Positions 1-64,000 of a DNA stretch of 64,000 bases are shown here, piece by piece (position 1 is the stretch's first letter; each line of letters opens with the position of its first letter). The stretch is taken from positions 13,640,001-13,704,000 of the forward strand of contig JANJGN010000035.1 of the NCBI GenBank assembly GCA_026770705.1, given 5' to 3'. The stretch is from Isurus oxyrinchus. Lineage: Eukaryota. The position numbers and the translations under genes are program-made. The notes beneath the pieces were generated by a model. It saw nothing but the letters and a program-made list of their open reading frames with translations. It searched no databases and was not told where the DNA came from.

Positions 1-1149
1 TGTTATCCAAACAGAACAAAGATTTCCATGCAAATAAATTCACCCTTTTATTTATATTTCCAAATGATGCATCAAGATTGGGAGTCAGCTACACCTAAAC
101 TGACAAAAAAAACAATCAGCGACTAAGCTGATTAAACATTAACCTATTTACCAGTTAGACAACAGCCGAAAGTTCAGTTGAAACAAGAAAATATATAAAT
201 AAATAATCGGTTGTATATTTTAAATAAAAGTCCAATATCTGATAACTTGTCACTGCATTAAGTACATAACCAGTGCTGAATACAACATGGCTCAAATAAA
301 ACTTGACATTTCCGTTCAGAGCTTTCGAGATGGAAGACGCTCATCAACATCTTAAGTTGTCCATGTACATGACGAAGCAATGGGCAATCGAGAGTGCCAT
401 CTGATGCAACTGTCTGACGCTCTTCCACGAGAATGTTCGCAGCCAGGTATCCCTGGAGAGGGATCACGCATTGTATGCTGGCATTGCCGAATCCTTCCAT
501 ACTTGCTGGACACTGCGGGGGTTGGGCTGCTTTATTGACCTTTTTAAACACACTTTGCTTTCACGTTTGTAACTTGCCTTTAAATGTTGTCTTCGTCTTT
601 ACTGTTTCAATTTAAGTGGCTGAGCTTTACGTTGTCCCTTAATTTGAAAACTTAGTTTATATGGTTGACTCAAAACAGTTATACAGAACACAAAAGCTTT
701 CAATAAGTTGTTTTTTCAATGATTCTGAAGGAGAGAACTTGAGCGTTTCTGAAAATAAAGAGACATACTGAATGTTTTCGTCTTGCACTCATCTGGCCAG
801 TTGGTCAACTTGCGAAGTAATCTGATGGGTGCAAGATAAAAAGCTTCAACATGTCTCTTTTTTCAGCCACACTCTGGTGAGAACTTACAATTTAGGACGT
901 GAATTTCAACGTAACCTTTGGGCTGAAAATATTAAACAATCATATAATATCTGAATACTCATGGCGATGCACTTTTAACAATTTGGTGTCCCTTTAACTT
1001 TGAAGTCCACCTTAAAGTGCATGGTATCAGAAAGGCGGTGGTGCCCACGCAGCAGGATTGCACTGGGAGGTAAGGTTGGGCGTCGAGGAATGGACTGTTA
1101 ACTTCATAGTGATTAGAGTGCGCCAACGCCCAACGTGACAATTGGCCCA

Positions 1150-1400
1150 CATTGGAAGTCAACCACATTGATGCGGGCCTGGAATCACATGTAGGCCAAG
1201 CCATTTAAGGACCGCAGATTTTCTTCCCTAAAGGAATTCAGGGGAAAAAATGGGTTTTTATAAACAATCGACAATGGTTTCATGGTCATCATTAGACATT
1301 CCTTTCATTCCAGATTTTTACATAATTCAAATTTCCCCACATGCCAAAGAGAGACCGATCTCTGACATGCCAGTCCAGTGGCAAAAACGTTATTCCAAAT
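1150..1400 (-). mobile_element. tRNA-derived SINE, degraded (paralog at 41985-42330)
   Basis: Reverse complement of the SINE core seen at 9040-9355: agtcaaccacattg...tggaatcacatgtaggcca...gcagattttcttccctaaagga. Confidence 0.8.
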
Positions 1401-1886
1401 CCTCCTGTGATCGACATTCATGGAGGAGATGGAACACAATATGAACTGAATCTCCAAATTCTGGTTGAAGCAGAGACTTCTAAGAATCAGTGATAGAGCA
1501 GAAAACTTGGGCCCAGTGCCTGTTCCCTCAGGTGGGTTTGTGCAAACACTGTAAGTCACTGAGATTGCCCTTCACGGCCAAGTCTCAGTAGTTCGTGTCA
1601 GCTAAGAACATGAATGTGGAGAGAGAGTAGACAATTTCTGGACTGTTTCATCATCAACCCCATATGCCTCTCCACCGTATTGTCAGGTTAGCAATACAAA
1701 TGCATTTCTTAAAATTAAAATGCTTTGATCAAAGTCTACTCATCTTCATTTTTCTGCATCGTGCACCTGGTGATGAATCTGTGGTGGATAGACACATAGT
1801 CTGGTGAAAGAAAACAAATGCATCAATGTTAATTGCTCTTTCTGGGATGTTCGAATTTCGCCAGCCTTCGGCTGAGGCAGAGTACA

Positions 1887-1955
1887 CTCGCCTCCCTTAA
1901 TCCTGATAACCGTCCTGTGCAAGTTAAAGTCTCATTAGTTTACCTGCCCACTGAC
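1887..1955 (+). pseudogene. U2 snRNA 5'-fragment relic (paralog of 47298-47369)
   Basis: ctcgcctcccttaatcctgataaccgtcctgtgcaag...tctcattagttta aligns without gaps to 47298 onward; weak similarity to U2 on its own. Confidence 0.4.
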
Positions 1956-2839
1956 AACACATTGCTAAGGGTAATAGCTGGAACTATTACACTTCGCAAT
2001 GTACTGCCGTCTCCTTTTGCCTCACTGGCTAAAGTCTTCCCCCATCCACTTTTCTTTTCCGCCTGAACTACGGCAACTTTGGACAAAATATCAAGTTGCA
2101 CCTTGTCAATGTACGTTGCCCCCTTCTATTCTCTTGCCATCTCCTTCCCCGTCTCCAGTGAGGCTGCTTGGACACCGAGTTCGGCTTCTCTCACACCAGC
2201 AAGTCGACGGGTTTCACTTGCACGGAGCAGGTTCGTGCAAACTCAATCAAAACATGGAAAGATGGACATGGTGTAATGCGGGGGGGACGTAGCTTCAATG
2301 GCCCCCCGGGGTCGTCAGACTCACACTTCCCTGTCTAGTTGTAGATTGTCACAATATTGTCTTACCCAGCCTTGGCAGCTCTGCTTCCCTTCGTCCTCAG
2401 CAAGAACGTTCACTGCTCACCAGTTCGGTTCTCCCACCAGCCCACGCACAAACATGAACTTCGGAAACAGTCCCTAAACCCCAAGAAATAGGAGAACTTG
2501 ATGGGAAGTGCAAAACACATTTCGCAGCGGTCTCCAAGTTCTGCACATCAGTGCACAAGGGCAGCCACATCTAAAATCACTGCAGCATTTTGCAGCCTCT
2601 CTCCAGATAAACAGTTTGCTGAGCTTTATTTTCATCAAAAGTGTCCAAACTTTTATTTTTCCACATTAGGCTCCACCTGGTAAATTCCTGCCAATCGCAT
2701 AATACAATTCTATCCCTTTGCAGAATTTATTTTTTCCTCCTTACATTTTTTGTTTCCTACCTAACTTTGTATAATCAGAAGATTTAATAAGATGATAGCT
2801 GGTTCTTTCATGCTGGTCATTCAGATAGATCCTAAAGAG

Positions 2840-4170
2840 ATAAATATCTAGCATTGGCAGCCTACCTCTTGTTTCAGCTCAGTACCGGTTAATTACCCAT
2901 TTATTTCGATTTTCTCTTTCCTTAAGGTTGGACTACCCTCAATCCATGTTAAAAAAAGAGTTCTTATGTTCTGCAGTTCCTTTTAGTTGGCAACTTACTG
3001 GAAGTCTTTTTATCAGGCAAATGCACAACATCAGCACATTCTCCTTAATCCAGCCTGTTTGTTATATCATCAAAGCACTCTAATTATCTTCACAAACACG
3101 ATTTTCCCTTCACCAAGCCATGTTGGCTCCTCCAGGTTGTAAAATAATTTTTGTATATGCCCGGCTAGTATATCCATTATAATGTTTCCTAGAATTTCTC
3201 AATGACAGCTATTTGACTAACTGTCATTTTGTTCCATGCTTTCAGCCTCATTTTTGTCTTCAATAGTGGCATTATTTTTTGTGGCTTTTCAAATCCCTCG
3301 GATATTTGTAAAAGTTAGTTGATTCTGGAACTTTGAAACATATTTAACCACTGCCTCAGCAGCAACTCATCCAAAGACCCCAGAATACAAACTATCAGTT
3401 CCAGTGACGCTGCCAGCCATAATTCCCATAAGTTTACCTAGTATTATTTCCTCCTAGTATTATGATATATTTAAACTCCTCTCTCCCTGTTTCTCCCTGC
3501 TTCCTTGTTTCTCTTGGGGTGATTTGTGCGTCCTCTTCCGTGAAAGCAGAAACGAAATAACGTCTCAAACCCTCTGCCAATCTCTGTTATTAACGCTGCA
3601 GTCTGACTCTCTGTAGGGCCAGCGCTCACAATCGCTGCTTTTTTCCTTTCATACACAGTTACAGAAGCTTTCACTGCCTGTTTCATAATAGTATTAGTTG
3701 TTCTCTTCCCCTCATTTTAAATGGTTGCCAATTGCCATGATGAGTGCAAGACAAAAAGGTTCGACATGTCTAATTTTTAATCAATGCTAATATTCCATAT
3801 TTCTCACAGTTTTGTTTTTATCTCGTAACCTAATTTCTACTCGGTCATTTGTCTCCTTTCCTGCTTACCTTTCCAAACCTCTGGCATAAAACTGGACCTT
3901 GCAGCATCTTACATCTATTTTGAATTACAATGAGATGCCGTCAATAATGTCCTGCCTTAAGCATGGAGGCGAATCCCTCTCGAAGAGCCTTTCTTCCTCA
4001 GTGCAACATATTCTTGCTGACATTTGTGATATAACTACCTAAATCGTGGCCATTTCTTCTCTGATGCCTACATGTTGACTATAGTTACTTTGGATAACTG
4101 TCTTTCCATGAAGTAGTAATCGCCTTCGCTTACCTTTATGGCCCTAATTCAAGACCAACTTTCACAACAC
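2840..4170 (-). mobile_element. Old CR1-clade LINE ORF2 fragment (paralog ~47880-49350)
   Basis: cacaaacacgattttcccttcaccaagccatgttggct at 3091 reads SQHGLVKGKSCL on the minus strand (CR1 RT SQHGFxKGKSC motif); many stops and frameshifts. Confidence 0.85.
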
Positions 4171-5225
4171 GTGTTTTTCTACTGGGAAACTGAAGGGTGT
4201 AACAGGGATAACTAGCCCTCCACATATCCTAACTAAAACATAAAAATAAAACTGCATTGGGGCTGAGCATTGTTCTCTGCAGAAAGACAATAACAAGAGT
4301 TCAAAGGTTTCTCATCAATCTGCTGCTGACAGTAGACTGCGGTTTTCATGTTGCTGTTTGCTGCTCATAACAAATACCCATATACCTTCTTGAGGAATAA
4401 CATTGAAAATGCACCTGTACAGCTATATCTTTGTATACAATGCGCATGACCGCAAGAGAGATCCTTTGTTCATCAGTTGCATCCTGTTTTCACATTCGCC
4501 ACTTTACCTATGACATATCAATTAGGCCATTTTGGTTTAGATGCTAATCGGCAATGCGTGTGTGAGAAACCCACATCTGCAAAAACAAAAAGGTACCTGG
4601 GTTAGACCTGTGCATTGCAATACTTTCTGCACGTAGTCAAAAGCAACAATAACCACATATAGTTATTTTAGAAAACTTCACATATTTCATTCCAGGGAGT
4701 GAAGATGAGAACAGGTTATTAGGTAATGAACAACACCCCCCAACACCAAACCCCACCCCCGCACTCCCCCCACCATCCTCACCCTCTCTCCCTCACATTC
4801 ATGAAATTATTTGCCATCAATATCCAGATTGCAAAGTCCGCAGTTCAAAGATAGCAGCCAGTTGAGGTTAACCCAAGAAACAAACAGCACAGAAGTAGAC
4901 TTTTTGATCCGTTGATTCAGTACCCACTTTAATATCACAGTTTGTTTTAAATTCATGGCAAGAAATGAACGCACCTTTGCAGTATCTGCGTCGGGATACT
5001 GATCATTCGAACTCTGCCATTAGTTGCCAGGCATTCGACCAGTCGGGGGATGAATTATCCGCGCAAATATATTTACAGACACTGAAGAATCAGCTTCTCC
5101 TCTAGATCATTATGTGTCCAGATACATAGTCAGTTATAACGTAATCTTCACAGTTCATTTTGCCGCCACGGATTCTAGAACAGGCTTTTGAAGAACAGGT
5201 TTAGAGCTTGTGTTTACATAGGATT

Positions 5226-5302
5226 CGTAGTCCTGGCAACAATTGGCCACGAGGTTTGTTCTTTGGTCACGAATGTAATAATTCAAACCCACCATTTTGC
5301 CA
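5226..5302 (+). pseudogene. tRNA-like relic, isotype unassignable (paralog ~50388-50464)
   Basis: A-box-like tggcaacaattgg and B-box-like attcaaaccc at tRNA spacing in both copies; no reliable cloverleaf. Confidence 0.25.
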
Positions 5303-5318
5303 AGCTTCTGCAGGGATA

Positions 5319-5392
5319 AGTGCACTGGTTAGTAACCAATTGCCCTCCATTCATAATCTCCAGGAAGGAATTTCAACACCCACCCCACCAGA
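5319..5392 (+). pseudogene. tRNA-Met(CAT)-like relic (paralog of 50481-50555)
   Basis: Shares ttagtaa...ttcataatct with the 50481 copy; very degraded. Confidence 0.3.
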
Positions 5393-5399
5393 CGCCTGG

Positions 5400-5665
5400 T
5401 TGGAGACTTCGATTTCTGCTTGTACAAAGTTATGGAAAATAAATAGCTTTTTCTTGGATAAAGGTAATGCAGGCGCAAGGCAGCTCTGAGGTACATTCAG
5501 AAGCAAAGTTTTTTCGAAGCTTCATTAGGACTGTTGATCGACTCACTGGTATGCAATTACCTTCTTTATCCCGACACCACTCCATGAATAATGGTTCTGC
5601 AAATGCAACCCTCCAGTCGTCTGGCACCAGAAAAGGTTTGGGAATCAGTGTCAGCGCCCCTACAA
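5400..5665 (-). mobile_element. CR1 LINE RT N-terminal fragment
   Basis: ORF 5430..5627 PDDWRVAFAEPLF..CRDKEGNCIPVS is a decayed CR1 PxDWRxANVTPLFKKG..GNYRPVS motif. Confidence 0.9.
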
Positions 5666-5670
5666 TAAGA

Positions 5671-7690
5671 ATATAAGAACAAAAAAAATGGGAGCAGGAG
5701 TTCCCAATTCAGCCCCTTGAACAAGACCCGCCATTCAATACAATCATGGCTGATCTCAGTTCGGCCGCAATTCTAATTTCCCGCCATCACCCCACAACTT
5801 TTCTATGGGTTACTATTTTAAAATCTGCCTATCTCTTCCTTAAGTTTATTCAGCATCCTGGCATCCACTCCAGTCTTGAGATACTGAATTCCACAGGTTC
5901 ACGACCTTTGAGAAAAGTAATTCCTTCTCATCGCTGACATAAACCTAGCACCCCTCAGTCAAAAACTGGGTCTTTTTGTTCAGGAATTCCCCTGAAGGGG
6001 AAACAGCTGATCCACGTCTACTGTGCCTACCATCTTCACCATCATACGCGCCTCAATTAGATAGCTGCTCATCCTTATAAACTCCAGGGAAGCTAGGCCT
6101 AAACTGCTCAATCTCTTTTCATAAGACAAGACCCGCACCTGTGGAATCAACCTGGTTAGCTTCCTCTGAATCACCTACAATCCAACTACATTGTTCCTCA
6201 AGTACGTAGAACAAAAGTGTGCACGATGCCTCAGGTGCATTTTCGCCAATGCGTTGTATAGTTGAAACAACACTGCTTTATATTTATGCTTATTCATTAA
6301 GCAATGAATGCCAAAATTTAATTTGCCTTCCTTATTACATGCTGCACCTGTTGCGAACTTTCAGCAATTCAAGCACAAGGATACCCAGTTCCGTCTGCAC
6401 TGAATTATTCTGAAGTTTCAATGCATTTAAATAATAAGTCGCCTTTTCAATCTTCCTAACAAAATGGAGAACCTCACACTTATTCACATTAAACCGCATC
6501 TGCCAAATTGTAGCCCATTCAGCCAAACTGTCCATATCCATTTGTAAATTTCTTGCTTCTTCATTGAAACCTACTTTCCAAACTATTTTTGTGTCACCTG
6601 GAAACTTAGGTATGTTAATTTCTATCGCTGAATCCAAATCATTAATATAGAGTGAAAATAGTTGGGCCACAAGGAGAAAAACCTTGGCAGCCCATCTGTT
6701 CCAGCTTGCCATCCAGAAAAATACCGACTTATCTTGGCTTTCTGCTTTCTGTTGATTAGCCAATCCTCTATCCACTCGAATATATTAGCCCAAATTATGT
6801 GTAATTTAATATTGTGTATTAACGATTAATGTGGCACCCTATTAAAGACCTTCTGCAAGTCAAGATATACTACATCTACAGGATCCCCAATATCTGATTT
6901 GCTTGTCACTTCTTCAAAGAACTGTAGCAAATTATTCAAACAGGAATTAATCTTCATAAAACCATACTGACTCTAAAGGATTGCATTTTGACTTTCCAAA
7001 TGCCCCATCACTACTCCCTGAATAATGGATTCCAACAATTTCCCTACAGATGTTAAGGTAATTGGTCTATAGCTTCCTGCATTCTGTTTACCCAATTTTT
7101 GAATGAGCACGTTATTTTAGGTTTTTTTTTCATTCCACAAGAAGCTTTTCAGAATCCGCTTTTTTTTGGAAAATTATACCTAATGCTTTCACGATTTCCA
7201 CTGCCACATCCTTTAAGACCCTGGGATGTAGGCCATCAGTTATTACGGACCGTTCAGATTTTAATTCCAATAGTTGGCTCAGTACATTTTTGTAGTGAAT
7301 GTTTTTGTTCTACGTTCCTCCTTCTCTATTTCCTGTTACTGCTTTTTCTATTTGTTGGTTCTGAAGTCCTCCACCGTGAAAACTAATGCAAAATACTGAT
7401 TCAGCGTCTCTGCCATTTCTGTGTTCCCCAATATTTACTCCCCAGGCTTATACTCCAAGGGAACAACATTCACTTTAGCTACTGTTTCATTTTTTTATAC
7501 TTGTAGAAGCTGTTGCTATCAGTTTTACAATTTGCACATATTTTCTTTCATAAATTACCTTTGCTCTTTTAATTTATTTTAGCTACTCTTTGTTGATCTT
7601 TAAGCAGCCTGGAACTGAACTTTGCAATTTGGTATACCTTCGTTTTGCCATTATGTTACCTTTAATATCCTTGCTTCACTGTGGATGTCT
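5671..7690 (-). mobile_element. CR1 LINE (RT domain + 3' UTR), apparently nested in an older CR1
   Basis: 3' tail ataagaac..aaatgggagcaggag at 5671; ORFs LFSLYINDLD..IPKFPGDTKI..WQMRFNVNKCEVLHF (6335..6775) and IQRKLTRLIP..LSYEKRLSSLGL (5980..6174). Confidence 0.93.
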
Positions 7691-7719
7691 TTTTCCTCCT
7701 CCTTTCTTTCTTTGCCATG

Positions 7720-8740
7720 TCCTTGACATTCATGCTTCCCTGGATATGTTCGTCCTTCCCTTCAGCTTTACGGGATCTTGTTAGCCCTGAAGTCTCACTA
7801 TGTCCTGTTGAATAAGGCTCCCACAGGTCTTACGTAGTGTTTCCCACAAGATGCTACTTGCTGTCCACTTTGGCCAGATCATTTCTTATCATAATGGAAA
7901 CGGCCTTGCCACAATTCAGGGCCTTTACCTCTGGTCCCTCTTTGTATTTTTTTTTCCATAATTACTTGAAATCTTACAGAGATATGGTCACTATATCCGA
8001 AAGGCTCCCCTAAGGACACTTCTATTACTTTCCTGGTTTCATTCCCAAGTTTAGGTAGAGCACCAATCCTTCTCTTGTAGGACTCTCTACGTGTTGGGTC
8101 AAAAAACTCTCCTGGATACACTCTACTAATTCTGCACTCACTAAGCTTTTCACACTACGACAATCCCAATTAATATTGGGGAAGTGGACATCGCCTTCTA
8201 CTTTTAAAAAATTATTTATGTTCTTCTCTGAGATTTGCCTACATACCTGCTCCTCTATCTGAAACTGACTGTTTCGAGGTCTATAGGCCATTCCGAGGAA
8301 AGTGATTGGCCCTTTTTTGTTTTAAAGTTGTACTCATATTGCCTCAGTTGAAGAACCTGTAAAATTCCCATGCCTCTTTTCTACAATAATTGACTCCTTG
8401 GTCAATAATGAAATGCCAAATATTCTTTTACAATCCCACCTCCACCCTTCATGTCTGAAGATTCTATGCACTGGAATATTGAACTGTCTGTCCTACACTT
8501 TCCTCGAGCATTTTTATGTGATAACAAAAATATTATATTACCAAATGTTAATCAATGCGGTCAATTTAACTACTTTACATGTAAGTCTCCTGGCATTAAA
8601 GTAGATAAAATGCAGCTTTGCATTATTCTCTTGTGCTTTAACATTTGCTCTTCCGTCCAGTATGACTTTTTTTCTCTGCTATATTGGCTGTGCATCAAAC
8701 CCAAAGGAACCTCTCCTCTGAATCCCATTGCCCTGCAAAA
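7720..8740 (-). mobile_element. CR1 LINE endonuclease-domain fragment
   Basis: ORFs YRPRNS..GDVHFPNINWD..FLTQHVESPTREG (8025..8291) and GEPFGYSDH (7879..8121) are APE-type EN motifs YRPP, GDFN, SDH. Paralog 50760-51110 reads VITEIWL. Confidence 0.92.
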
Positions 8741-9039
8741 CCCGCAAGAAGCAAATGAACTAAATTAACAAAACCAAGGACATATTAAAAGGCATCCCAG
8801 TGAGAAAAAAACTGCAGAACTGTCGATGAACTGGGCAATCCAAACGTTCAGCGATCAGAGTGAGTCTGCGCAGTGGAATTCCCCACGGATTAACCCTCCA
8901 CCCCGACACGACCAATCCCATGTAGCCAGCGAAAATATAACTTGTCCACCCCTGCACCCTTCGCCAAACAACCCCCACCTCACCCACCCCCCCCCCCCCC
9001 TCGCCCCCACGCCCAGCACACCCCAACACAGATGGCAGG

Positions 9040-9355
9040 TTGATATCTCCCCTGACTAATATCACAGTGTAATGCCTTGGGGACAGGAATACCAAGACAG
9101 ATATTGAAATTTAAATTCAAATCCTGATGATCACCATGAAAAAGCTGCCCATTTTCAAATAAAACCCATTTAGTTTCCTGATCCCCTTTAGGGAAGGAAA
9201 TTTGAATTTCTTTCCTAGTCTCGTCTACATGTGACTCCAGGCCCACTGAAGTGTGTTAGACTCTTATGTGTCCAATGTACAAGGGGCAAATTGGATTCGG
9301 CAATAAATGCTGACCTGGGCAGCGATGCCGAAATCCCATGCGCAAATTTAAAAAG
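9040..9355 (+). mobile_element. tRNA-derived SINE sharing its 3' tail with the LINE at 11615-12515 (paralog 51310-51610)
   Basis: Core ctttagggaaggaaa...ctacatgtgactccag and tail ggcaataaatgctgacctgggcagcgatgccgaaatcccatg recur in several copies in the window. Confidence 0.85.
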
Positions 9356-9639
9356 AACATGGGTGTTCAGAAAAATCCTGTAAAATTTACCACTTTTCTA
9401 ACTAAATATCATTTGGATCTTAACTACAGAACATTATAATTTAATATTCTAACAGATTGCATTCATTGAATTCAAGATTGTTTAAACCATTTTTAAAGTG
9501 ATATTTATTCGGGCTTTTTTGGAAATTTTTGTTTTACCTTGTGCTTGGATCCGATGGAAATGATCCAGAATTCAGGCCAATGTGGAGTCACTGGCTGCAC
9601 CATAATGCACACAATAGGGCGTGAACGTAAGCTGAATTT

Positions 9640-9770
9640 ATATGAAGAAACCAAAGTTCTGTGGAAGCTGCACATCTGAAATAAAAAAATAAAATACTGG
9701 AAATACTCAGCAGGTCTAACAGCATCACTGGAGAGAGAAGGAGACTTAAGATTCCGAGTCTCACCATAAT
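9640..9770 (-). mobile_element. Penelope-like 3'-end fragment
   Basis: atctgaaataaaaaaataaaatactggaaatactcagcaggtctaacagcatc resembles the 13374 and 42630 elements. Confidence 0.7.
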
Positions 9771-10179
9771 TCTATTTTTATCTCCATTCATTTATATGGA
9801 AAAGTGTTCTCCAATTTTAGTGTGGGGTTCAAATTCTGGCCTTGTAGTTTAAACAGAAGTGCTGCTAAATCTCATCAGGTTTGACAATATTTGTGCACAG
9901 AGAAACAACGTAAATTCGGAGGGGTTGAGGTGGGATAATTATAATTTCCCCACTCAAATTCCAGGTCACATTCGTTGCAATATTTCCCTCCAATATCAGT
10001 TGTTCTCCGCTGTATTAAATTTACAGGTGACCTCAAGAGAGGATATAGCAATTATGCTCACAAATTGAGATTTTGGGCATAAAACAAAACCCTGTATTAA
10101 AGCAGGCCAGTCTGCCTAGCGAGGCTACATAAGTAGAGAGGACGGAACAGGACCACTAATCAGTCGCATATTTCCATTA

Positions 10180-10860
10180 ATTGCCCCCAGCCCAAACACC
10201 AGCACAATACCAAGGAATGCCTGGCCCAGTCTACCCCAACCCACCTCCACCTCCGTGCGCACACAAAACAAAACAACCTACAAATGCACCGCAAAGTCAA
10301 CTTCCTAACCCCCACCAATTTTTCAAAGTTTTTCCAAACCAGTCCACCCTTATAAATTGCCTTTCCAACCATCTAACAGCCACCCACCCACTCCACACCC
10401 AAAGACTCCTACCAACCAGCCCCGCCCACCAGCAAACCCCAGACACACAAACCTCCGAATCCCCAACCCAACAACGGCCCCTCAATTACTTCACCACGAT
10501 ACCCCCCTCCATATCATTCCAACCCACTAAAGCAACATGACCTGCTTACACGAACCCCGGTATCCCTCCCCCAACCTCTCCAACAAATCCCCACCCTCCC
10601 TGCCCTACCCCGAAACCTCCTTCCTACTTAACACCCGCAGTCAAAAAAACATTCCCATCTGCATCACGCCCACCTCCTTCTCCCAGGTCAGGAACAGCAC
10701 CACCTCACCCGCCCGATCTCCGAGCCCCTCATTCCTACAACCCCTAATCCACCAATAGCCCCTCACAGACTCTACACCCAACCGCTCTGCCCTTTCACCC
10801 CCAAACAACAACAACCACACAACTACCCCACCCCCACCACCTCCACCATGCAACATTGTC
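10180..10860. repeat. C/A-rich low-complexity tract (paralog 52700-53330)
   Basis: Strong C/A strand skew; gives spurious Pro/Thr/His-rich ORFs. Confidence 0.85.
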
Positions 10861-10899
10861 CAACTCGAACACGGTCGAACTCACAATGTGAACCGGGAG

Positions 10900-11030
10900 A
10901 CAAACAAAAGAATGAAAATGATGCTGATGCTGCAGATCTGAGAAACAGAACATAACATGTTGGAGAAATGCATCTGTGGAGGAGCGAAAGAGTTGGCTTT
11001 TCGAGTCTGTTTGAACCTTGTTCGAGATTT
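10900..11030 (-). mobile_element. Penelope-like 3'-end fragment (paralog ~53335-53470)
   Basis: gatgctgcagatctgagaaacagaa...gcatctgtggagg...tttcgagtc motif. Confidence 0.7.
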
Positions 11031-11614
11031 CACAGTGTACTCATCAGTCATCTGTCCAATCCAGGCTGTATTGGTGGGCCTTCTACTAAACAGCCAATTT
11101 CTTTCAGTGAGATGGAGACATTATTGCTGAGTTTTTGTGTTTACTTCTGGTTGTGGAAAGACCTGTCCATTCAACATCGCACCTTGCATGTCCTGCCAGT
11201 GACCCGAACACCTGCTGTGTGCATACAGGGACTCTATTTGGTATATTTTACTGAAAGGTACATTTTGTCTCAAAGTTAGTTGCTAGCTTGAATCTGTTAA
11301 AAACAGGTGATTAAATGTTGGAGCACCTCCTCTGATTGCTGAACGTGTTCAACCTGAAATATGCAATCGAGATCATGCCACCAAATGTAATCCAACTTTG
11401 ATCCTGTGTGTGTTTGTTGCTCAGTATTTTCTGTGCTGAACGTCCACACTGGGACTCCAAGCTGTGCCTCAATACTCGAGCAGCTGGTATAGACTGAATG
11501 CCAGGGAATGGCCTCAGATACTGTTTTCGTATAAAATGCACTACCGGAATATTTCCTCCCCATGCGAGGATGCGTATTAGGCGCAACAACAGTTAGTTCG
11601 GTAAGTGAACTGTT

Positions 11615-13373: not shown

Positions 13374-13564
13374 ATAAAACAAAAAAACTGCGGATGCTGG
13401 AAATCCAAAACAAAAACAGAATTACCTGGAAAAACTCAGCAGGTCTGGCAGCATTGGCGGAGAAGAAAAGAGTTGACGTTTGAGGACTTGAAATGTCAAC
13501 TCTTTTCTTCTCCACCGATGCTGCCAGACCTGCTGAGTTTTTCCAGGTAATTCTGTTTTTGTTT
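13374..13564. mobile_element. Young Penelope-like fold-back insertion with 15-bp TSD
   Basis: Flanked by exact direct repeats aaccataacactatg (13359-13373, 13565-13579); internal ~75-bp inverted arms are nearly identical. Confidence 0.9.
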
Positions 13565-16640: not shown

Positions 16641-16699
16641 ATTGTTTGAACTGATACAACTCTATGTGTTAATTACCAAACTCAGAATGTTTTATCAGA

Positions 16700-42830: not shown

Positions 42831-42849
42831 AGCAGTCGGCCGTCTACAC

Positions 42850-50480: not shown

Positions 50481-50555
50481 ACATCATTTGATTAGTAAGG
50501 AGGTGCCGGACATTCATAATCTCTAGGCTGCAAATTCAAATCCTCCCATGGCTGG
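50481..50555 (+). pseudogene. tRNA-Met(CAT, elongator)-like relic
   Basis: acatcatttgattagtaagg...ttcataatctctaggctgcaaattcaaatcctcccatgg follows GCCTCGTTAGCGCAGTAGG...CTCATAATCTGAAGGTCGTGAGTTCGATCCTCACACGG at roughly 60%. Confidence 0.45.
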
Positions 50556-53500: not shown

Positions 53501-56500
53501 TCTAATCCGGGGTATCATTTGTGGGCTTCCCATCAAACAGCCAAAACTCTTCAGCGACGTGGATAGATTCTTGTTGGGACCATGTGGGTGAATTTCACAC
53601 CGTGTTTTTGTGAATGCTGCTGGTTGTGGAATGAGCTGTCCATTCATCATCGCACCCTATCTGACCTTCTAGTGACCCGAACACCTATCGTGTGTGGACA
53701 GGGCCCTCTGTGCTTTCACCCACTGAAAGGTACATTGTTTTGTACATTAAAGCAAACCTAGCTGAATGTGATGAATAAATAAAAACACTTAAATGTTGCA
53801 GCAGCTCCTCTGTTTGCTGAAAGTGTTCTGCCTGAATTGTTCAATCGGGTTCATGCCACCAAATCCAAGTTTGATCTATCTCTCGTGTCGATGTGTTACT
53901 CAGTATTTTCTGTTCTGAACTTCGAGGCTGAGACTCCAAGCTGCGCCTCAATACTCCAGCAGCGGCCTTAGTCTGAGTACCAAGGCTAAGTGTCATATTC
54001 TGCTTTCGTACAAAATGTTCTATCGTTATTTTTCCCCCAATGGGAGAATGGTTAATATGAGATTGGTATTTCTGGTGACAGTGGATGTGTTCCTGTTTCA
54101 TTTCGACGTTGGCAAATGGCCCCGACCAAGATTATTTCCTTCTGGAAGCGTCGGAGGTCATTGTTCAGTATGTAAATACAGAATAAATTGTTCACATACG
54201 GCCGATTTATGCGAAGCTCAAAAGGCAGCTCCAGCACCTGTTTACTTTATTTTATATAGACTTGCTTAGATTGGACAAATCGTAAGCGGCTTGCTCCCGT
54301 GTTACTGCCCCACAGCAACTACTTCCACCTTACCAACTAAATATAGTGATCGAAGAGAAATACTTTGCGTTTGTCTGAAAGTCTGAACCTCGTGAAGCAA
54401 CCGCAAATGCTTCATAGGAGTGCTAACAGCCAAGACTCACACTTAGCCCTAGCTTAGGAAGCAAAACACGTGTTAAATAAGGGTTGTAGGAGCACGTTAG
54501 GGTGCCTGGCTGCTGAGCAGACTTCTGCAAGATTGCATGTAGGCAGCGGTGTTTTGTTTGAAAACATATTTAATCAAGAGTGAAATCTAGCAGGCGGGGC
54601 AAGAGAACATGGGAAAATTTGACACTCCGGAATCTATTCCAGTCCAGCTACCTAATTGTCAATCAACGGGCTAGAGAAACAAATAGGATGTGCTAAGCAC
54701 ATCAAGCGTACAGAGACAACCCTGTGGCAACTGCCATCCCCCCTCTTGCCGCCGGGATATTTCACAGCCTTTCGCTCATGACAACCACATAGTTATCGTT
54801 TTGGATTCACCCAACAAGTGGAAAATGCTTTACCATGTGTCTACCTGCTGAAGTCCCTACTTATTTGTAAACATCTCTCTCATATTCACTGCTCAGCCTT
54901 TTGTATTCTAGTGGAAAAGCCCCAGACTGCTTACCTGTATACATTGTCTTATCGCATCTTCAGAATTCCCAAAAGCAGATTGGATGATCTGCCTGTTGGA
55001 GTCCAACTCATTTGTGATTGTTTCTTTCTACGAAGCGGAATGTATATATGGATGTTATGGGCTTGGGTAAGCAAATAGATCACAGTCAGCCACCTGATGG
55101 GTTGAAAGCTGGATTTATCTGTCGTTTGACTTTTAATGTATCTACTTTCATGTCCATTCATTGCCAACGCGTCCATCAAACATCTTGCCATCTGAGATAG
55201 TGAGGCAACATGAGTAAAACAATCCCCACATACGTAACTTTCAAAGCAGGTCCTTCGATGCAAATGGCGAAATCTGCCTTCCAAAACTGTGATGCCACAG
55301 ATGAGTGCCCCATCCCATCTGTTTACTTTCCACAAATGTGACTATGTTCTCGGCCCAATAATCTGGGACAAGTTTCCTTATGAATTGTAATGTCAGATTG
55401 GGCATGAGGCTGCTTGTTGCCAGAAGTCCTTTTGCTTATTTCCAATTGTCCTGAACATCAACTTGCCACTGATGAACATGGAATTATTTTCAAGTTCCTA
55501 GTCGTCCTCTGGTTCCTAGTGATGTTGGAGATATCCATATCAATCGCTGTTTCCTTTTGCACATGGGAGGTGCTGGGCAGCAATTCGAAGATTACAGTTC
55601 ATAAGGTAAGTAATTGCAGGGGTCCAGATAATACTAAGTTTTGATCTGAAGAGAAGCAAGTGACTTGAGTCTCCGCAGCACCTTTTCTGACAATTCGAAA
55701 GCGTCTTCAAAGTAGAGAAGTATTATCCTATCAATAGAAATGTGAGACTGGCTAGCTGATATTTCGTGGGTGTTGGTCAAAAGATCTGAGATTCAGAGGG
55801 ATCTGGCTATCAAAGTGCAAGAATCACAAATTTCTAGTGTGCAGGTACAGCAAGAGATTAGTGAAAACAAAATAGAATGGTATAACTTATTCTGAAGGGA
55901 ATGGAATACAAAAGTAGGGAGATTATATTTCAGTTGTACAGGGCACTGTTGAGAACACATCTGGAGTTTTGTGTTCAGTACTGTTACCCTCAATTAAGGA
56001 AGATGTAAAAGAATTAGAAGCAGTTCAGAAAAAAATACAAGATTAACATCAGGAATGGATGGGCTATCTTACAAGGAAAGGTTGGATAGTTTAGGCTTGT
56101 ATCCAATTGAATATAGGACAGAAAATGACAACTTTATTAAAACATATATCAGTGTGTTGGATATTGATAGGTTGTATGTGGAGATGATGTTTCCATTTGT
56201 GGGAGAATGTAGCCCTAGGGGTCATTTTTTTAAAAATTAAGAGGACACTCCATTGAGACAGCTGAGGGGCATCACTTTCCCTCAGGGAGTGGTGAGACAT
56301 TGGATCCCCCTTCCTGAAAATATAGTGGAAGAAGGTTCTTTGAATATGTTTAAGGCAGAGATAAATATATTCTTGATTAACAATGGTGTAAAATGCTATT
56401 GGGCGTCGGCAGGAAAGTGGGACTGAGGTATCATTTAAGTCAGCCATGGTGTCTTGTTGAATGGAAGAGCAGGCTCGAGGGGCTCGCTGGCCGACTCTTG

Positions 56501-59500
56501 CTCCTTGCTCTTAAGTTTGTCTGAACAATCACACGGAAGCAAGAGTAAAATGTTAACTTGTTATCGAATGGCCGCTCTGATATGAAACTGTGGGGGGAGG
56601 TGGAGAATGAATGCTTTTCAGATGCTAGCGTGTTCCCAAGGGTCACTTTTGGATTAATTACTATCTCCTAACTTCTATATATGAACTAGGGTATACTGCA
56701 AGAAGCAACATGATAAAGTTTGTTAACGGAACACAACTTGGTAACTGGGTACATATTGGTGAGTGGGGTTGTTGACTCCAGATGGCATAGGGAGAATAGT
56801 GAAATGGGCAGGAGCTGGTAGATGGAGCTGAATGTTGTCATGTATAACTTTTGCAAAGGCGAATATGGCAGGACAAATTTCAATTAACATTCTGAAAAGA
56901 GGAGTTAAGAAGAGCTGTCTTCCTGTTCACACAGACCAATCATGAATTTTTTTTATTCGTTGCGGGGTTGTGGTCGTCGGTGCCTTGGGTCCAATATTTA
57001 TTTCCAAACTCTTAGTCAGAGGGTATTTAAGGGATAGACACAGGTAATGCAGACTTGTCAAGGATGGCATATTTCCTTCCCGAAAGGATATTAGTGAATC
57101 ATACGGGGCTTTAAAGCAATCGGCAATGATTACACGATCCTCATCAGCAGAATTTTAATTCCTGACTTTTATTGAATTCGAATTTCACCATCTGCCGTGC
57201 AGAATCTGGGTACACAGATCATTATCCTGGGTCTTTGGAATAATAGTCAGTGACAATACCACTATGCCACCACCTCTAAATGGAGTTATACAGTCTGAAA
57301 TAAGCTGAAGGGGTGCCAGCTTTACAAATTGTTGTTTGAGTCAGCTGGAGGTTTGCGGACAATTCCTCACACGAGAATCTTCGAATACTTAATGTCTTTA
57401 AAAGCGGTACAGGGGAAGTGTCCAAGCTTGTTACACGGGAAATGACCTCAGCTGTAAGGAGAGGTAAAATTATCGCGAAGTCGCTCCTAATTGGCAGAGA
57501 AATATGTCGGAGGTAACTTACTAAAGCTTTGGAAGTTGCTGGGAGGATTTGATCTAAGAGACAGAATTAAAGGGACACTGAATTAAGGTCATTGTAAGTA
57601 GTTTGAGAGATAATAAAGCTCATTAATTTCTCACACAGTTGTCGGACTCTGGGACGTTGTACCTGAATTTTTTTTAAAAAGTGTCTGGAAATTGCTTACA
57701 GAAATAATTTTAAACGGAAATCGGGGAGCTCGTTGAGAATGAAAAAATGACGGGCTTCAGAAGATAAAGATTGGGGTGCAGATGTGGGACATAGTATCAC
57801 TGTGCTCCTTCAACAGGATAAGCAGACGTGCTGTCGATCTAGGCGCCAGACCCGCATGAATATCAGCAGGTAGAGGGCCATAGGGTACTTTCCGGGCCAA
57901 CAGAAGGCTGATTGTCATTAGATCACAGCACCAATTGGTCATGAGACATCTGGCAGCCAGTGCTATTTGTGGGCAGAGCCAGTGGCTGCCCGGGATACCC
58001 AGATTTCTGCCTAAATTCCGGCTCCTGTCAGTTCGATTTCAGGCTAGACAGGTGAAATAATCACTTAGTATTCACATTAACACCATTTTATTGTATTTTA
58101 TAATAACATTACCGCTTTGTTAGCATCGAGGTTAGTTGAAATTAATTAACTAGTATTTGGAACGTTTATATTTGGGCTCAGAATTTTGCATAGACTTCAC
58201 GAGTTTATTGAGTTACATTTATTTTCTGACTCAGTTCGAGATGGCTCCCACGAGCCTAGGTTTTTTTTTCAGTATTTGGGAAAATGCTGTTCACTTCTCT
58301 AAGGGAATGTCATATATAGATGGATTTATACATATAACATCATAGACACATACGGACATGTATTGCATAAATACTCGTAAATTTTTTGAGAAATTGCATT
58401 CATTCTCAATATAAATCACTACCACCTGAATGCCTTCCCCTTTTTTCAACTTGGATGTAACGAGGACCTTAAGGCCTAGGTGTACATATCCATAGATCCT
58501 AGAAGACAGCAGCACAGATACATTAGTCAGTTATGACGTCATATGAGATATTTGCCTTTATTAGACGAGGCGTAGATTAGAAGAGCAGAGAGGTTATGTT
58601 GGAATTCTTTGGAATGCTAATTGGGCCGCATCTGGTGTACTGTGTGCAATTCACGTCGCCACAGTACAGGAAGGATATTTTTGCACTCTCCAGGGTGCAG
58701 AACAGATTCATGGGGATGTTGTCTGGGCTGGAGCATCTTAGGTATGAACTGAGACAGGACAGGTTGACTTGGAATACCATAGAGCAGAGAAGGCTGAGAG
58801 GGGAGCTGAAAGAGGTCATCAATATTATGAGGGGCTTAGGTAGGGCATAAGGCAGATGGAATAAAAATGTTTTCCCCATAGCAGAGGCGACAATTACCCT
58901 CGGGCACAGATTTACGTTAAGGGGCAGGAGTTTTAGAGAAGAACTGAGGATTGTTTTTCACCCAGAGTGAGTTGGGCGGGGTTGCTACGGGAATTCACTG
59001 CCAGAGGGGGTGATAGATGCAGGAATGCTGGCAACGTTTAATAAATGTTTTGATGAGTAAATGAAATGCCACAGCATACTGAACTACTGGCCATGTGCTG
59101 GGAAATTAGATTAGAATAGATAGGTTCATGATGGCCTGCAAGGACAAAATGGGCCGACTGCCCTTTTTCTGTGCTGTATAACGCTATGGTTCTAAAGACT
59201 GTTTCTGCTCACTGCTTTGATGTCAAATCCGTTTTCCTTCAGAGCCGCACAATGAGTCCGCTCTTCAGGACATCAGCTCTCAAACGCCCGTACCTCAGGG
59301 CTGAGCATGTCGCGATGTGCCACCACCAGCACTGTTCTAAGCTGCTCTTCATTGGCACAGCTGGAGATTCAGTGGGAGTAAATCTGCCGCCAGCTCAATG
59401 AGTTCACTCCATGACTGATATTCCTTTTAATGTCCAAGAACGCATGCTGCTGACTGAACAAAAGCTATGTGATAAAGAGAATAAAGAGACGAGGGGGAAC

Positions 59501-62209
59501 TGACCAACAGAAACCAAAAGGAAAGGAGGAGGACATTCCACCCTTCGTTATTGTGCTGGTTCTTTGTCAAATCTCTACCATTAATCAGTGTCCCTATTTT
59601 AATTGCCGATAGCCACTCAACTGTTTAATCAAAGCACTTTTGAAACTTAATATTGAGCTTTCTTCCACCAGTATTTCAAACCATATATAAAGTTTACCCA
59701 CTATTCGTTTTACTGTTTTCCCAGGTCTACATCCCTCCCCTCCCCCGTTTCATTCTCCCCTCCTACACCTTGCCACATGTCTAAACATTGATACGTTTCC
59801 AATAATACCTTTCTGCTCTCTTTCATTTACTCCCATCCATCACTAACATGTTTCTCTTTCCATCCTGTTCCCAATGCCACACCCACTTGTCTGCACTTCT
59901 TCCCATTGTTAACCACCCCTTTGCTCGCTCTCATAGACCCATCCTCCGCACGGCCATTCATTGATGTTCGAATTCCCAATTTTAAAATGAGGGATGTTAA
60001 AAAAAATACATCAACACTCTGGAAAATGCCACTTGGCAGAAACTGATTCTTTCCAACCACGCCCAGGGGACATGGGAACTCGGGAAAACCCCTTGCTCAA
60101 CAGTCCCCCTCGCAAGTTCTCACTCCTTCCCCTGTCTGCCCTCATTTTTCCACCAATTCCACGACTCACCCTTGTTTTAAACTTTGCCTTTCACTCTAAT
60201 TTGTTTTTCTGACGCCATGAGGACATGGGAGGCAACATGATAATGAAAATGATATTGCTGCTGAATTCTCTTTGCCACTTTAATTTGACTTGGAATACAG
60301 CAGCACGGCTTCCATCTCTTTCTGTGATTAAAACCACCGTGAGCATCCACAAATAGGTCAATTCTCTACCATGTTAAAATCAACTGGCACTTGTGCCACT
60401 TCTCCATCGAATTGTTTCCTTCTATCTGCTACCTCAATGCGCATTTGCCAACCTCGCCATGGGAGATATTTAGAGTGCATGCTTTAAATGTGCCTGACAA
60501 TCCAATTGCGGCCCTCAAACCAATCTTCACCGGACACTTATCCCTATATCCAACCCAGACCTTCACTCAGAAACGCCAGTGCTCTGAACACCAAACAGTC
60601 TGGCTCAATCCCTTCCATTCAGTAATCAGAGAAAACGATTTATGGACAAATTGGAAAAAAAAACCTGCGGTAATTTCTGAGCTACCTTTCAGCCCATGCA
60701 CGTAAATGCTACTGGGGGATTTAATCTTGACCCTAACTTAGAGGCCCCAGGAAATACACTGGGCTGGGAGAGCAAGCTTCCACATGAAAGGATTAAATGA
60801 TTAATATTGTAAAATACGCTGCTCAGGAAAGTGGGGGCAAGGAAACAATGTTGAGCCTTTTAAAAGGCATGTTGTACTGTCCAGTGTGTTTATTACTCAG
60901 AAGTTTAAAGCTCTCATAATTTAGAAAGCTACACGGATTCACTTTCATCATTTCAGGGAGACGGGAAAACCGTTTCTCACATCCATCTAAGAACAAAAAC
61001 ATGATATTGGTTTCCTTCTCACTAACTAAATGCCTTTCTGTGATTCGCATTGCCTTCAATATTCTAAAGGCCTACAGATAAACAACAGTTGCGAAGTATC
61101 ACGCTGCAGTGATGGAACAAGTCGTTGGTTGGGAGCAAGACCAGATAAAGGACGGCATTCGGGCTGCATGTGAGGGGAATGACCTGTGGAGGGCGGCTTC
61201 TGACTGAAAAAAATGAGCGGTGCTTTGGGTTCTGTTTGGAGACCCTAGAGAGCCCAGAGGAGGAGGGAATCCGAGGGGGATCAGGATAGCTGAGTCCTTA
61301 CATTTTACTGACGTTGAATCCTGACATTCAGCGCTCGGGTTCTACTATTTCCACCGCATTTGAGAAGATTAAACACAACTCCTGCTGCATTCTCCTGCTC
61401 CTTCAACAAAGCTGAGATTGGGACATGCCAGGCTGAAATAGTATGTCCGTAACAAACTGATAAAACACCATAGATACCCCAATCAGAATACCATTCCCAA
61501 CTTCTACACTCAATAGAATGGGAGCCACAGTACTCACATTTCACTCTATTTACAGAGAACTGGTGTGCAGAACCTCCCTGGTTACTCTGTTCCTTATGCA
61601 TCTCGGAGGTGAATATAATTCTGGATAGTGTCCTGACTGGTGTCCATTGGAAAAAACAGGGGCAGGAGCAGCATGTAGTGACTTTTTCCTCAGCTTCAAT
61701 GTTCATTGAGTCCACAGTTAAATTCCTACCTGACTAGCAAATTCCTAAATTTTCCTCATATACCTTGATTCACACAGGACCCAAGAAATTATCATTCTCA
61801 AACTCGAATATACCACCGTTCTGTGTCCAAATATGAAAAATTTCAGAGGCAACTGTGCGGTCGGACAGACGCTTCAAATCAAAATTCTCATTCACATTGT
61901 CATCGAGCACACTCCCTCCCCTACTCCCCTTCCCTAACCCTTCTCCCCACTGCCCTCCGTCAGTGCCTCTACACTCCCCTCCCCCTCTCCTTTCTCATGT
62001 CACCTCATTCTCACCTCTACGTTCCACCCTCCCCCTCTCCACTTTCCCTCCCCATTATGCACCTGCCCTCCCCCTTCCTCTACCCACTCAACCCCTCCAC
62101 CACATCCCCTCTCCACCCCTCCTACTCCCCACCTCAACCCACGGTCTGTCCAGTGAAATTCATGGATACAGTGGAAGAGATAATATTCAGATTTTTCAGA
62201 CCAACATCA

Positions 62210-62271
62210 GCGCTCGTGGCTCAGTTGATTAAAAAGCCCGTTCAGTAGACAGGAGATGCCCAGAGCTGCCT
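62210..62271 (+). pseudogene. tRNA-Thr(AGU family) pseudogene lacking the T-arm
   Basis: cgtggctcagttgattaaaaagcccgttcagtagacaggagat vs canonical CGTGGCTTAGTTGGTTAAAGCGCCTGTCTAGTAAACAGGAGAT, then jumps to cccagagctgcct (~12-13 nt deleted). Confidence 0.8.
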
Positions 62272-62977
62272 CTTAACTTATCACCAGTTGGACGTTTTGA
62301 ACATGCTAGCAAAGAGGAAAGTATCAGCTGTTGAGGTGCAAATTTCAATTTGATAGCAACCCTCGATGCCGTGATCAGTACAGGGAAATAAAAACTCAAA
62401 TTGTCCAGTGTCAACTTCATTGATAAATGTTCCTGGAAGGCTGCAGCGGTTCAAGTAATTAGGTCTCCACTACATTCTCAAGGGCAACTAGGGATGGGCA
62501 ATAAATCCTGACGCAGCATGAAAAGCCCACATCCCCTGAATGAATTAAAATACACTTAATTATCTTCCTGATGTACAGGCAACATGAGGTATATTGAATG
62601 ATGAGCTTGTGAGTGCACTCAGCAGGAAAGGCGGGGGCGGGCATGATAATACATGAAGTTCTTGTGTTTCCAAATCAATTCAGTGCTCTACAATATGTCA
62701 TTGCCACAACTTAGAGAGTGACACAGAATTCTTGTTTTCATAGTGGGTAACCTGACAACTTCCTGCCACGAAGAACAAATAAACGCATGATCTATTAGGA
62801 AAACTGGAAACTGATGCACTTTTTGTAATGGCCATCTCGAAACGTTTTCTAATGCCCTTTCATGTATTTTATGAAATAAGTACAGAAGTAATATACTAAG
62901 TAATTAATGCTAAATTATATACAGCTTAAATATGTTAGAAGATATTGCATATCGTTGTGGAAAATCAGGCTTTAAAA

Positions 62978-63050
62978 GACTGGATAAATCAGTTGATAGA
63001 GTCTTAGGCTTCTACTCTAACAGTGCAGGGATCAAGTCCCTATTCGGACA
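62978..63050 (+). pseudogene. tRNA-Lys(UUU) pseudogene (paralog of 29377-29448)
   Basis: 53/73 to canonical with no gaps; followed by a ttttt terminator remnant. Confidence 0.88.
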
Positions 63051-64000
63051 ATGAATTTTTAACACTGCCCTGAGTGGTGGAAGGGTTTGATCGTAGGCAC
63101 ATTCATGCATTTGAAATGAGTGGTTCTGGTCTGGTTGTATTTAAAAGTGCATAGGTTGGATTTGAAATGTACTTGATGAGATACGTGGGAGGCTTGGTTT
63201 TTCTGCTGCTGACTTTCAAAGGGAAGTTTAGAAGTGACAAGGAACTTCAGAATTTGCAGAGATTTCACAGGTAAAAAAAGGGGAAGTTATATGGAGTTAT
63301 TTTGACACAAAGTAAAGGCATTAGGAGAACATAGATTTTTATATTTGGAGAATTAGTATTTCCTATTTAGTAGACAAGCCATTTAAACAACAAAGTCACG
63401 GCACTGGGAGCACCGGGATGCTTCTAAATCTTATCTTATAATTTGCATCAGTGAATTTTCTGACACGCATCATTTGGAATTGTTGGCACATGGTGAGGAC
63501 TTTCCAACTGTTATGACCCAGCAGTTAATCCAGCTGAGTTATTTAAAATGCCAGTGGAAAACGTGAAATAACTGTCATAACCAATACTGTTAACTAATAT
63601 TATTGAGAGATAACTCTAAACTCAGGAATCAGACCACCATTTCTCGAGATGTTTTTGCATTAAAATAAATGAAACATCTTATATGTTAAAACAAATTTAA
63701 AAACATGCACATGGCTACAAATTGCTACTATCTAACTTTTAATAAATTCCCAAACTAACCTCCATTAAGTTACCAGCAACCACGGGCTTTAAGCAGACAC
63801 CAGGCAAAGGATTTTCACCTTTAAACATTCAAAGTGAGTTTTCTGACACTTTGAATCCTTTGCAGACACAGTGCCAGGCTTCCTGGATTTCATCTTGCAT
63901 TGCATCTGTCCTGCACAAACAAAGCTTCTGTCTGTTATAACCAGCATATCCCATTGAATATAAATCGTTATTTCAGCACCAGCCCCATTGAAATCCGCCT

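What the first reader, a model, noticed from the sequence alone, without database searches (positions are those of the whole stretch)
1..64000. Ancient ~41-kb tandem unit that looks like a fossil tRNA/snRNA gene array
Seen: 1-~31000 is repeated in direct orientation at ~40770-64000. The only host-gene-like items I can identify in the unit are dead small-RNA genes (Lys x4, Thr x2, Met-like x2, U2-like x2). Homology runs off both window ends, so more units may exist. Known: vertebrate tRNA and snRNA genes often lie in large tandem arrays homogenised by concerted evolution. Inference: this is an array that escaped homogenisation and decayed (birth-and-death), with substitution-dominated divergence of about 30-40%.
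Basis: partly seen in the sequence, partly recalled or inferred. Interest (0 to 1): 0.7.

Follow-up and report, generated by a model that had tools for sequence, protein, structure and literature searches.

The report
Megabase fossil lysine-tRNA gene array
The window holds two of 22 head-to-tail, roughly 44-kb copies of a DNA block whose lysine tRNA genes are broken in every copy while a related block on the same contig keeps intact ones, so it is likely a tRNA gene array that multiplied long ago, stopped being homogenised and died in place.

Summary
Confirmed, and larger than seen. The window's repeat (72% identical, mostly substitutions) is two of 22 same-orientation units filling 0.96 Mb; typical pairs are 70-72% alike, the closest 91%. 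Units carry up to four tRNA-Lys(UUU) relics and two truncated tRNA-Thr(AGU) relics: 63 per Mb against 0 in 200 kb of background. None of 51 aligned Lys relics keeps both promoter boxes, yet the majority of 19 copies at two sites is 72/73 identical to the working gene. A paralogue 2.6 Mb away shares most of the unit and keeps intact Lys genes at those two positions. No conserved window, codon rhythm or Pfam domain points to another gene. Trees give two bursts (about four unit types, then a C-B-D-A block copied several times) and little since; a second species holds one unit's orthologue at 95%, so the array is far older than that split. Not confirmed: Met-like and U2-like relics, so 'snRNA' should go. 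Best reading: a dead tRNA-Lys segmental array, birth-and-death, likely in a cartilaginous fish.

The parts
1..40770 (+). Unit 1 of the window (subfamily A); one full period of the array, cut at an arbitrary phase
40782..64000 (+). Unit 2 (subfamily B at marker D), with internal deletions and lacking the 32.0- and 34.0-kb Lys sites
7688..38737 (+). Part of the unit shared, at 65-78%, with the living paralogue G000:C35:16.97-17.10 Mb
26765..26837 (+). Very old tRNA-Lys(UUU) relic, already decayed before amplification
   Evidence: E 0.022; majority of 21 copies 55/73
27746..27800 (+). 5' part of tRNA-Thr(AGU), truncated near nt 50
   Evidence: E 0.0064
29377..29449 (+). tRNA-Lys(UUU) relic, slightly damaged before amplification
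   Evidence: E 2.7e-8; majority of 13 copies 67/73
30212..30263 (-). 5' part of tRNA-Thr(AGU), truncated near nt 50, also in the living paralogue
   Evidence: E 4.3e-5; Rfam 22.5 bits
32025..32097 (+). tRNA-Lys(UUU) relic, 60/73; intact at the homologous site of the living paralogue
   Evidence: Rfam 29.7 bits
34026..34098 (-). tRNA-Lys(UUU) relic, 52/73; intact at the homologous site of the living paralogue
   Evidence: E 1.2e-4
38734..40712 (.). Decayed tandem repeats, ending in a 43-bp array whose length varies from 190 to 1,641 bases among 20 units; absent from the living paralogue
61280..61353 (+). Position in unit 2 homologous to the 26.8-kb Lys relic; not detected on its own
62210..62264 (+). 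5' part of tRNA-Thr(AGU) in unit 2
   Evidence: E 7.8e-6
62978..63050 (+). tRNA-Lys(UUU) relic in unit 2 (homologue of 29377)
   Evidence: Rfam 27.7 bits; E 6.8e-8
63353..63404 (-). 5' part of tRNA-Thr(AGU) in unit 2
   Evidence: E 1.9e-4
47300..47361 (+). The likely 'U2-like' stretch: rejected as a U2 relic; part of an old low-copy repeat

Best explanation
This is a dead tandem array of 22 roughly 44-kb units carrying broken tRNA-Lys(UUU) genes, likely built by unequal crossing-over from one segment of a larger tRNA-Lys gene cluster and left to decay once the copies were redundant. Shown: the units, their order, their relics, the living paralogue, the lack of constraint. Inferred steps: (1) a segment with two intact Lys genes, one slightly damaged Lys gene and three older relics was copied head to tail into about four to six unit types (pairwise distance now about 0.36-0.38); (2) subfamilies lost one or other Lys gene (A and C the 34.0-kb gene, B the 32.0-kb gene); (3) a C-B-D-A block was copied several times (pairwise about 0.23), probably still with about one intact gene per unit; (4) exchange almost stopped (one later local duplication, about 0.09), and all remaining genes decayed at or above the neutral rate, while Lys-tRNA supply was kept by younger, 97-99% homogenised arrays on the same contig.
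For: 22 units, one orientation, 964 kb. 49 Lys and 12 Thr relics at 18 bits or more in the array, 0 in the reversed array, 0 in 200 kb from 20 background places. Alignments made without the tRNA give 72/73 identity to the working gene at two sites, called tRNA-Lys(ttt) by ARAGORN (19 copies each); a pairwise test agrees: copies of different subfamilies share only 2.1-2.6% derived sites in the gene against 7.7-11.6% in flanks. Living paralogue with kilobases of shared flank and intact genes at the same two sites. 0 of 51 relics keep both A and B box; best copy 63/73. Relics differ from the gene 1.24-1.32 times as often as spacers differ from their commonest base. No constrained 60-nt window among 1,855 (mean 0.814, SD 0.034, max 0.897). 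Subfamily-shared deletions: 7 of 7 A copies, 4 of 4 C copies at 34.0 kb, 2 of 2 D copies at 32.0 kb. Order C B A C B A B D A B A B A C B D A C B A C D. Organism B holds the orthologue of unit 1 at 4.6-5.1% difference. Young arrays nearby: 4.5-kb units 98.7-99.2%, 14-kb units 97.1-97.6%.
Against: tRNA relics are under 1% of the unit, so they label the unit without proving they drove its spread. Survival of one gene per subfamily to the second burst rests on 73 sites each: P 0.06-0.14 singly, with 6-11 undecided columns, picked after the fact. The protein screen is weak: 300 of 327 stop-free frames of one copy, and it missed even the LINE reverse-transcriptase pieces. Markers give partly different trees (u13689 and u13866 join the C-type units at marker B but the B-type units at D or E), so units are mosaics and subfamily labels are approximate. 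The neutral baseline is biased low. Unequal crossing-over is inferred, not shown.
Confidence: 0.8

Rival explanations
1. The unit was amplified for another, now unrecognisable gene (a protein-coding or long non-coding gene), and the tRNA genes rode along.
For: 40 of 44 kb are not tRNA module; the first 7.7 kb and the junction repeats are missing from the living paralogue; a CpG-rich stretch follows the U2 candidate; other windows of this contig hold birth-and-death receptor arrays of ~30-kb units (scan note e1-9061094, unchecked).
Against: Flat conservation over 38,890 columns of depth 10 or more; the strongest codon rhythm (z 4.36) lies in a LINE piece and within the shuffled maximum 2.97-4.56; no Pfam hit over a curated cut-off in 300 of 327 frames; the CpG-rich stretch has no match outside the array.
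Confidence: 0.1
2. The array still works without its tRNAs, as a chromatin domain, boundary or small-RNA source, which is why a megabase was kept in place.
For: Kept with little change in a second species; CpG observed/expected 0.49 against 0.19-0.37 at 18 of 20 background places; the human 1q23.3 tRNA repeat is proposed as a boundary (PMC4041453, abstract and passages).
Against: A and B boxes are barely better kept than the rest of the relics (G/C sites 0.28 and 0.25 against 0.32); no conserved motif window; the raised CpG level is shared by the whole tRNA-rich region and by two other places on C35; the difference to organism B (about 5%) is spread along the pieces laid.
Confidence: 0.07
3. 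The relics are tRNA-derived SINE heads or retrocopies inside an ordinary old segmental duplication.
For: The genome has tRNA-like repeat heads: weak Thr-type hits at 3 of 20 background places; the Thr relics are truncated.
Against: Lys relics are full length, sit at the same positions as intact genes in a paralogue sharing kilobases of flank, converge on the exact gene and are absent from background at 18 bits.
Confidence: 0.03

Closest known systems
Human 1q23.3 tDNA VNTR (Darrow and Chadwick 2014, PMC4041453; abstract and passages read)
   Same: Head-to-tail array of tens of multi-kilobase units in which tRNA genes are a few percent of the unit.
   Different: There units are 7.3 kb, 98% identical, with five intact genes and live copy-number change; here 44 kb, 66-91% identical, one isoacceptor, every gene broken.
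Clustered, abundant tRNA loci of sharks and rays (bioRxiv 10.1101/2025.06.08.657570; passages read)
   Same: Large chromosomal tRNA clusters; this contig has intact Lys, Val and Met genes from 13.28 to 17.1 Mb.
   Different: That survey dropped loci scoring under 50, so arrays this decayed are invisible to it; it notes histone genes beside the cluster, and none of 150 scored histone hits (of 2,496 candidates) lay on C35.
[quoted passage not shown] 2010, PMC2888827; abstract and passages); birth-and-death model (recalled)
   Same: Genes are born by duplication and decay as unconstrained sequence.
   Different: Here the whole record of one expansion survives as a megabase block with live, dying and dead stages side by side, rather than scattered single pseudogenes.
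Mixed concerted and birth-and-death evolution of 5S rDNA in freshwater stingrays (PMC3123226; search listing only)
   Same: Pol III gene arrays in a cartilaginous fish showing both modes.
   Different: 5S genes in short units; not a fully dead long-unit array, as far as the listing shows.

Membership tests
Homogenised tDNA tandem array (1q23.3 type) | Head-to-tail units that each carry tRNA genes | tested here: met
   22 units, relics at fixed positions
Homogenised tDNA tandem array (1q23.3 type) | Units nearly identical (about 98%) | tested here: not met
   median 70-72%, best 91.5%
Homogenised tDNA tandem array (1q23.3 type) | Intact tRNA genes | tested here: not met
   one degenerate ARAGORN call in the array; 0 of 51 relics keep both boxes
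Homogenised tDNA tandem array (1q23.3 type) | Copy-number variation between individuals; CTCF binding | not testable with these tools
   needs raw population reads and ChIP
Birth-and-death multigene array | Duplicates descend from intact genes and many become pseudogenes | tested here: met
Birth-and-death multigene array | Copies diverge independently; neighbours are not each other's closest relatives | tested here: met
   interleaved subfamilies, tip branches about 0.12
Birth-and-death multigene array | Some family members stay intact | tested here: met
   intact genes in the paralogue and flanks; their expression was not tested
tRNA-derived SINE or retrocopy | Dispersed copies without shared flanks | tested here: not met
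   kilobases of flank shared with intact genes; 0 in 200 kb background
U2 snRNA gene array | U2 gene or relic in the unit | tested here: not met
   E 0.067 at best; majority 38/57; C5 copy not U2-like; no Rfam U2 hit in window or paralogue. Score 34 beat 300 of 300 random pieces, but it was the best of about 145 such pieces per unit
Tandem cluster of protein-coding genes | Shared exons with codon-like constraint or known domains | tested here: inconclusive
   none found, but the screen is insensitive to genes dead this long

The most novel reading that the evidence does not exclude
A whole megabase tRNA domain was switched off at once: after the second burst every unit still had about one working Lys gene, then all died together and the array froze, recording a domain-level shutdown of Pol III genes and the divergence at which concerted evolution stops. 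No relic in 22 units is better than 63/73, whereas the paralogue shows every grade from 60 to 73.
Probability: 0.25. Interest if true: 0.65.

Novelty: new variant of a known kind. Interest (0 to 1): 0.42.

Why it matters
tRNA arrays are normally seen either homogenised and working or gone. Here one contig holds 99% arrays, 97% arrays, half-dead units and a 70-80% fossil of the same gene, so the life cycle of a tandem gene array can be read in one place. Twenty-two neutrally decaying copies of 40 kb, with an orthologue in a second species, are also a ready ruler for deep-time mutation in this lineage (transitions/transversions about 0.8-1.0, weak CpG decay). It shows that a megabase that looks like unique non-coding DNA to standard annotation can be a tRNA graveyard. 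It is not a new molecular mechanism.

Tried and rejected
ARAGORN found 0 genes in the window and in 40 flanking 10-kb stretches; Rfam alone saw 3 of the 9 relics later detected in the window. Met: elongator and initiator genes from the genome gave no site of their own. U2: see the observation check. Assembly artefact: rejected, copies are 9-33% apart and organism B holds the sequence. Large mobile element: rejected, no dispersed full copy; only repeat pieces match other contigs (these searches score only the best candidates). Pfam on 300 of the 327 stop-free frames of 50 aa or more in unit 1: four weak hits, all under cut-off; whole-frame scans could not be run. TFIIIC-box retention: not supported. 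Histone neighbourhood: no C35 hit among 150 scored. Expression: no RNA holder listed; four runs guessed to be RNA covered only repeat pieces in the tables shown; no evidence either way. Absolute dating: the epaulette-shark rate of 7e-10 per base per generation (PMC10587355, abstract and passages) cannot be turned into years here; a search for a yearly shark rate gave nothing usable. Branch-wise timing of gene loss stays at the level of majority and pairwise counts. The window's one stretch of N was not interpreted. Part's relic list (left flank) was cut from view; counts come.
Full report
Setting. The window is G000:C35:13,640,001-13,704,000 in a 4.98-Gb genome. That the animal is a cartilaginous fish is inferred: its repeats resemble shark elements as I recall them, and unchecked scan notes on this genome say the same. 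I did not test it.

The repeat. Self-comparison gives nine colinear direct blocks between 10-30862 and 40782-64000. Over 17,397 aligned columns identity is 71.9%, with 2,084 transitions, 2,803 transversions and 395 gap events. Of 18,282 aligned unit-1 bases, 6,339 (35%) match anything in 833 kb of DNA from outside the array; 65% are unique spacer.

Extent. A 5.6-kb probe found homologues only on C35, apart from a repeat piece, from 13.41 to 14.33 Mb and once at 16.98 Mb. In 1.264 Mb fetched round the window, markers A, B, D and E each count 22 copies, C 18, F 21, G 16, H 20 plus one inverted. The array runs from 13,381,915 to 14,346,351, 964 kb, mean 43.8 kb per unit, marker spacing 14-68 kb. 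All units face the same way. It begins and ends inside the tRNA-bearing part of the unit. The window's unit 2 is cut short at about position 30.9 kb of the unit.

The relics. With tRNA and U2 genes taken from the genome itself the window shows five Lys(UUU) relics and four 5' pieces of Thr(AGU); the reversed window shows none. Over the array 49 Lys and 12 Thr relics reach 18 bits (63 per Mb), against 0 in the reversed array and 0 in 200 kb from 20 places elsewhere. ARAGORN calls one degenerate gene inside the array and four Lys genes just left of it. Among 51 aligned Lys relics none keeps both the A and the B box and the best is 63 of 73 identical to the gene. Met-like sites were not found. 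The U2-like stretch scores E 0.067; it beat 300 of 300 random array pieces but was chosen from a whole unit, the majority of 21 copies is only 38 of 57 alike while Thr windows score 30-33 against U2 by chance, and its dispersed copy on C5 is not U2-like. I drop it.

They were real genes. Alignments built without any tRNA give majorities 72 of 73 identical to the working gene at the 32.0- and 34.0-kb sites (19 copies each) and 67 of 73 at 29.4 kb (13 copies); ARAGORN calls all three tRNA-Lys(ttt). The 73 of 73 is biased by projection on the gene and is not relied on. A pairwise count agrees: copies from different subfamilies share 2.6% and 2.1% derived sites in the gene, against 11.6% and 7.7% in the flanks. 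C35:16.97-17.10 Mb matches unit positions 7.7-38.7 kb at 65-78% and has intact Lys genes at exactly the 32.0- and 34.0-kb positions, grading from 60 to 73 of 73. Its Thr pieces are truncated at the same point, so these, like the 26.8-kb Lys relic (55 of 73), were dead before the array arose.

Nothing else is conserved. Across 38,890 columns covered by 10 or more units, 1,855 windows of 60 nt average 0.814 (SD 0.034, maximum 0.897); the Lys relics are below average (0.73-0.77); the top codon-rhythm score is in a LINE piece and within the shuffled range. Relics differ from the gene 1.24-1.32 times the spacer expectation (that baseline is biased low). Pfam on 300 of 327 stop-free frames gave four sub-threshold hits; this screen also missed the LINE reverse-transcriptase pieces that I recognise by eye in the translations printed, so an anciently dead gene is not excluded.

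History. Trees of four markers (20-23 rows each) show three to four well-supported subfamilies and a few lone units, tips about 0.12 and root depth about 0.18-0.2 changes per site; median pair identity 70-72%, best 91.5%; the living paralogue branches at the base. The order is C B A C B A B D A B A B A C B D A C B A C D (my intervals, from marker D), a C-B-D-A block copied several times with losses. Markers partly disagree, so some units are mosaics. Lesions shared within subfamilies (a 4-nt gap in 7 of 7 A copies and a 7-nt gap in 4 of 4 C copies at 34.0 kb, a 3' deletion in 2 of 2 D copies at 32.0 kb) show that the second burst copied dead genes too. Three of eight subfamily-site pairs carry few shared changes (A 32.0: 3, B 34.0: 2, C 32.0: 4, against 6.2, 5.7, 8.8 expected; P 0.14, 0.075, 0.063; excess sharing 0.013-0.028 against 0.05-0.09 in flanks). 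This suggests, without proving, that each subfamily kept one gene until about the second burst.

Age. Organism B holds the orthologue of unit 1: 457 differences in 9,015 bases (run X6) and 262 in 5,640 (run X5), counted on the eight longest pieces listed for each. Corrected distances of 0.36-0.38, 0.23 and 0.09 put the first burst at about seven times, the second at four to five times and the last local duplication at about twice the A-B split. With a recalled, untested neutral rate of 0.5-1 per billion sites per year the first burst would be 180-360 million years old; treat this as a guess.

Context. Intact Lys genes flank the array on the left (13.28-13.33 Mb) and fill 14.7-17.1 Mb with Val and Met genes. 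There 4.5-kb units are 98.7-99.2% and 14-kb units 97.1-97.6% identical: concerted evolution is alive on this contig, and the fossil escaped it.

Comparison. It works like the dead end of a tDNA tandem array and meets the three birth-and-death features tested; it fails membership of the homogenised 1q23.3 type (PMC4041453) on identity and intact genes. Six searches for a described fossil tRNA array (listings only, in a library lacking most subscription journals) showed none.

Verdict. Observation largely right, reading right for tRNA-Lys and wrong for snRNA and Met. New variant of a known kind; interest 0.42.

Noticed in passing
array-wide; window 13600-29600 against organism B: Transitions are no commoner than transversions: 0.78-0.95 among units, 247 to 248 against organism B at 5% divergence; CpG sites differ only about 1.5 times as often as other G/C sites (0.31 against 0.20). 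Old LINE copies elsewhere give 0.96-1.02, a young repeat 2.27 on short pieces.
   Followed up: partly
G000:C35 13.2-17.1 Mb (L218-L233, L081-L093): CpG observed/expected is 0.37-0.73 across the tRNA-rich region against 0.19-0.35 on other contigs, suggesting a long-standing low-methylation domain.
   Followed up: partly
G000:C35:16,933,451-16,961,774 and 17,053,256-17,095,753: Young homogenised tRNA-Lys(UUU) arrays: seven 4.5-kb units (about 99%) and four 14-kb units (about 97%), each also carrying decayed Lys copies.
   Followed up: partly
G000:C35:13.25-13.37 Mb and 14.36-14.46 Mb: Further, older Lys and Thr relic clusters on both sides of the array, partly homologous to the unit's tRNA module.
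   Followed up: no
window 47380-47600 (and about 2135-2350): A CpG-rich stretch with a CGGAAGT motif (ETS-like, recalled) in most units, matching nothing outside the array; could be a dead promoter.
   Followed up: partly
window 13376-13564: A near-perfect palindromic repeat pair absent from the other units, so a later insertion; it causes the spurious miRNA and plastid Rfam hits.
   Followed up: partly
window 30381-31129: A ~760-bp dispersed repeat, 77% to many copies on other contigs that are 86-88% alike among themselves, inserted before the array arose; class not determined.
   Followed up: partly
G000:C30:301,801-530,148 and C29: A live U2 snRNA array with ~2-kb spacing on C30 and further intact U2 genes on C29.
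   Followed up: no
G000:C37, C40, C48, C50, C73: Very large histone gene clusters, most of 150 scored hits; initiator-Met-like genes lie on C40 and C73.
   Followed up: no
G000:C35:17,038,963-17,039,037: A Lys-derived gene in the living paralogue reads anticodon TTA (ochre-suppressor-like), with 7 changes; probably decaying.
   Followed up: no
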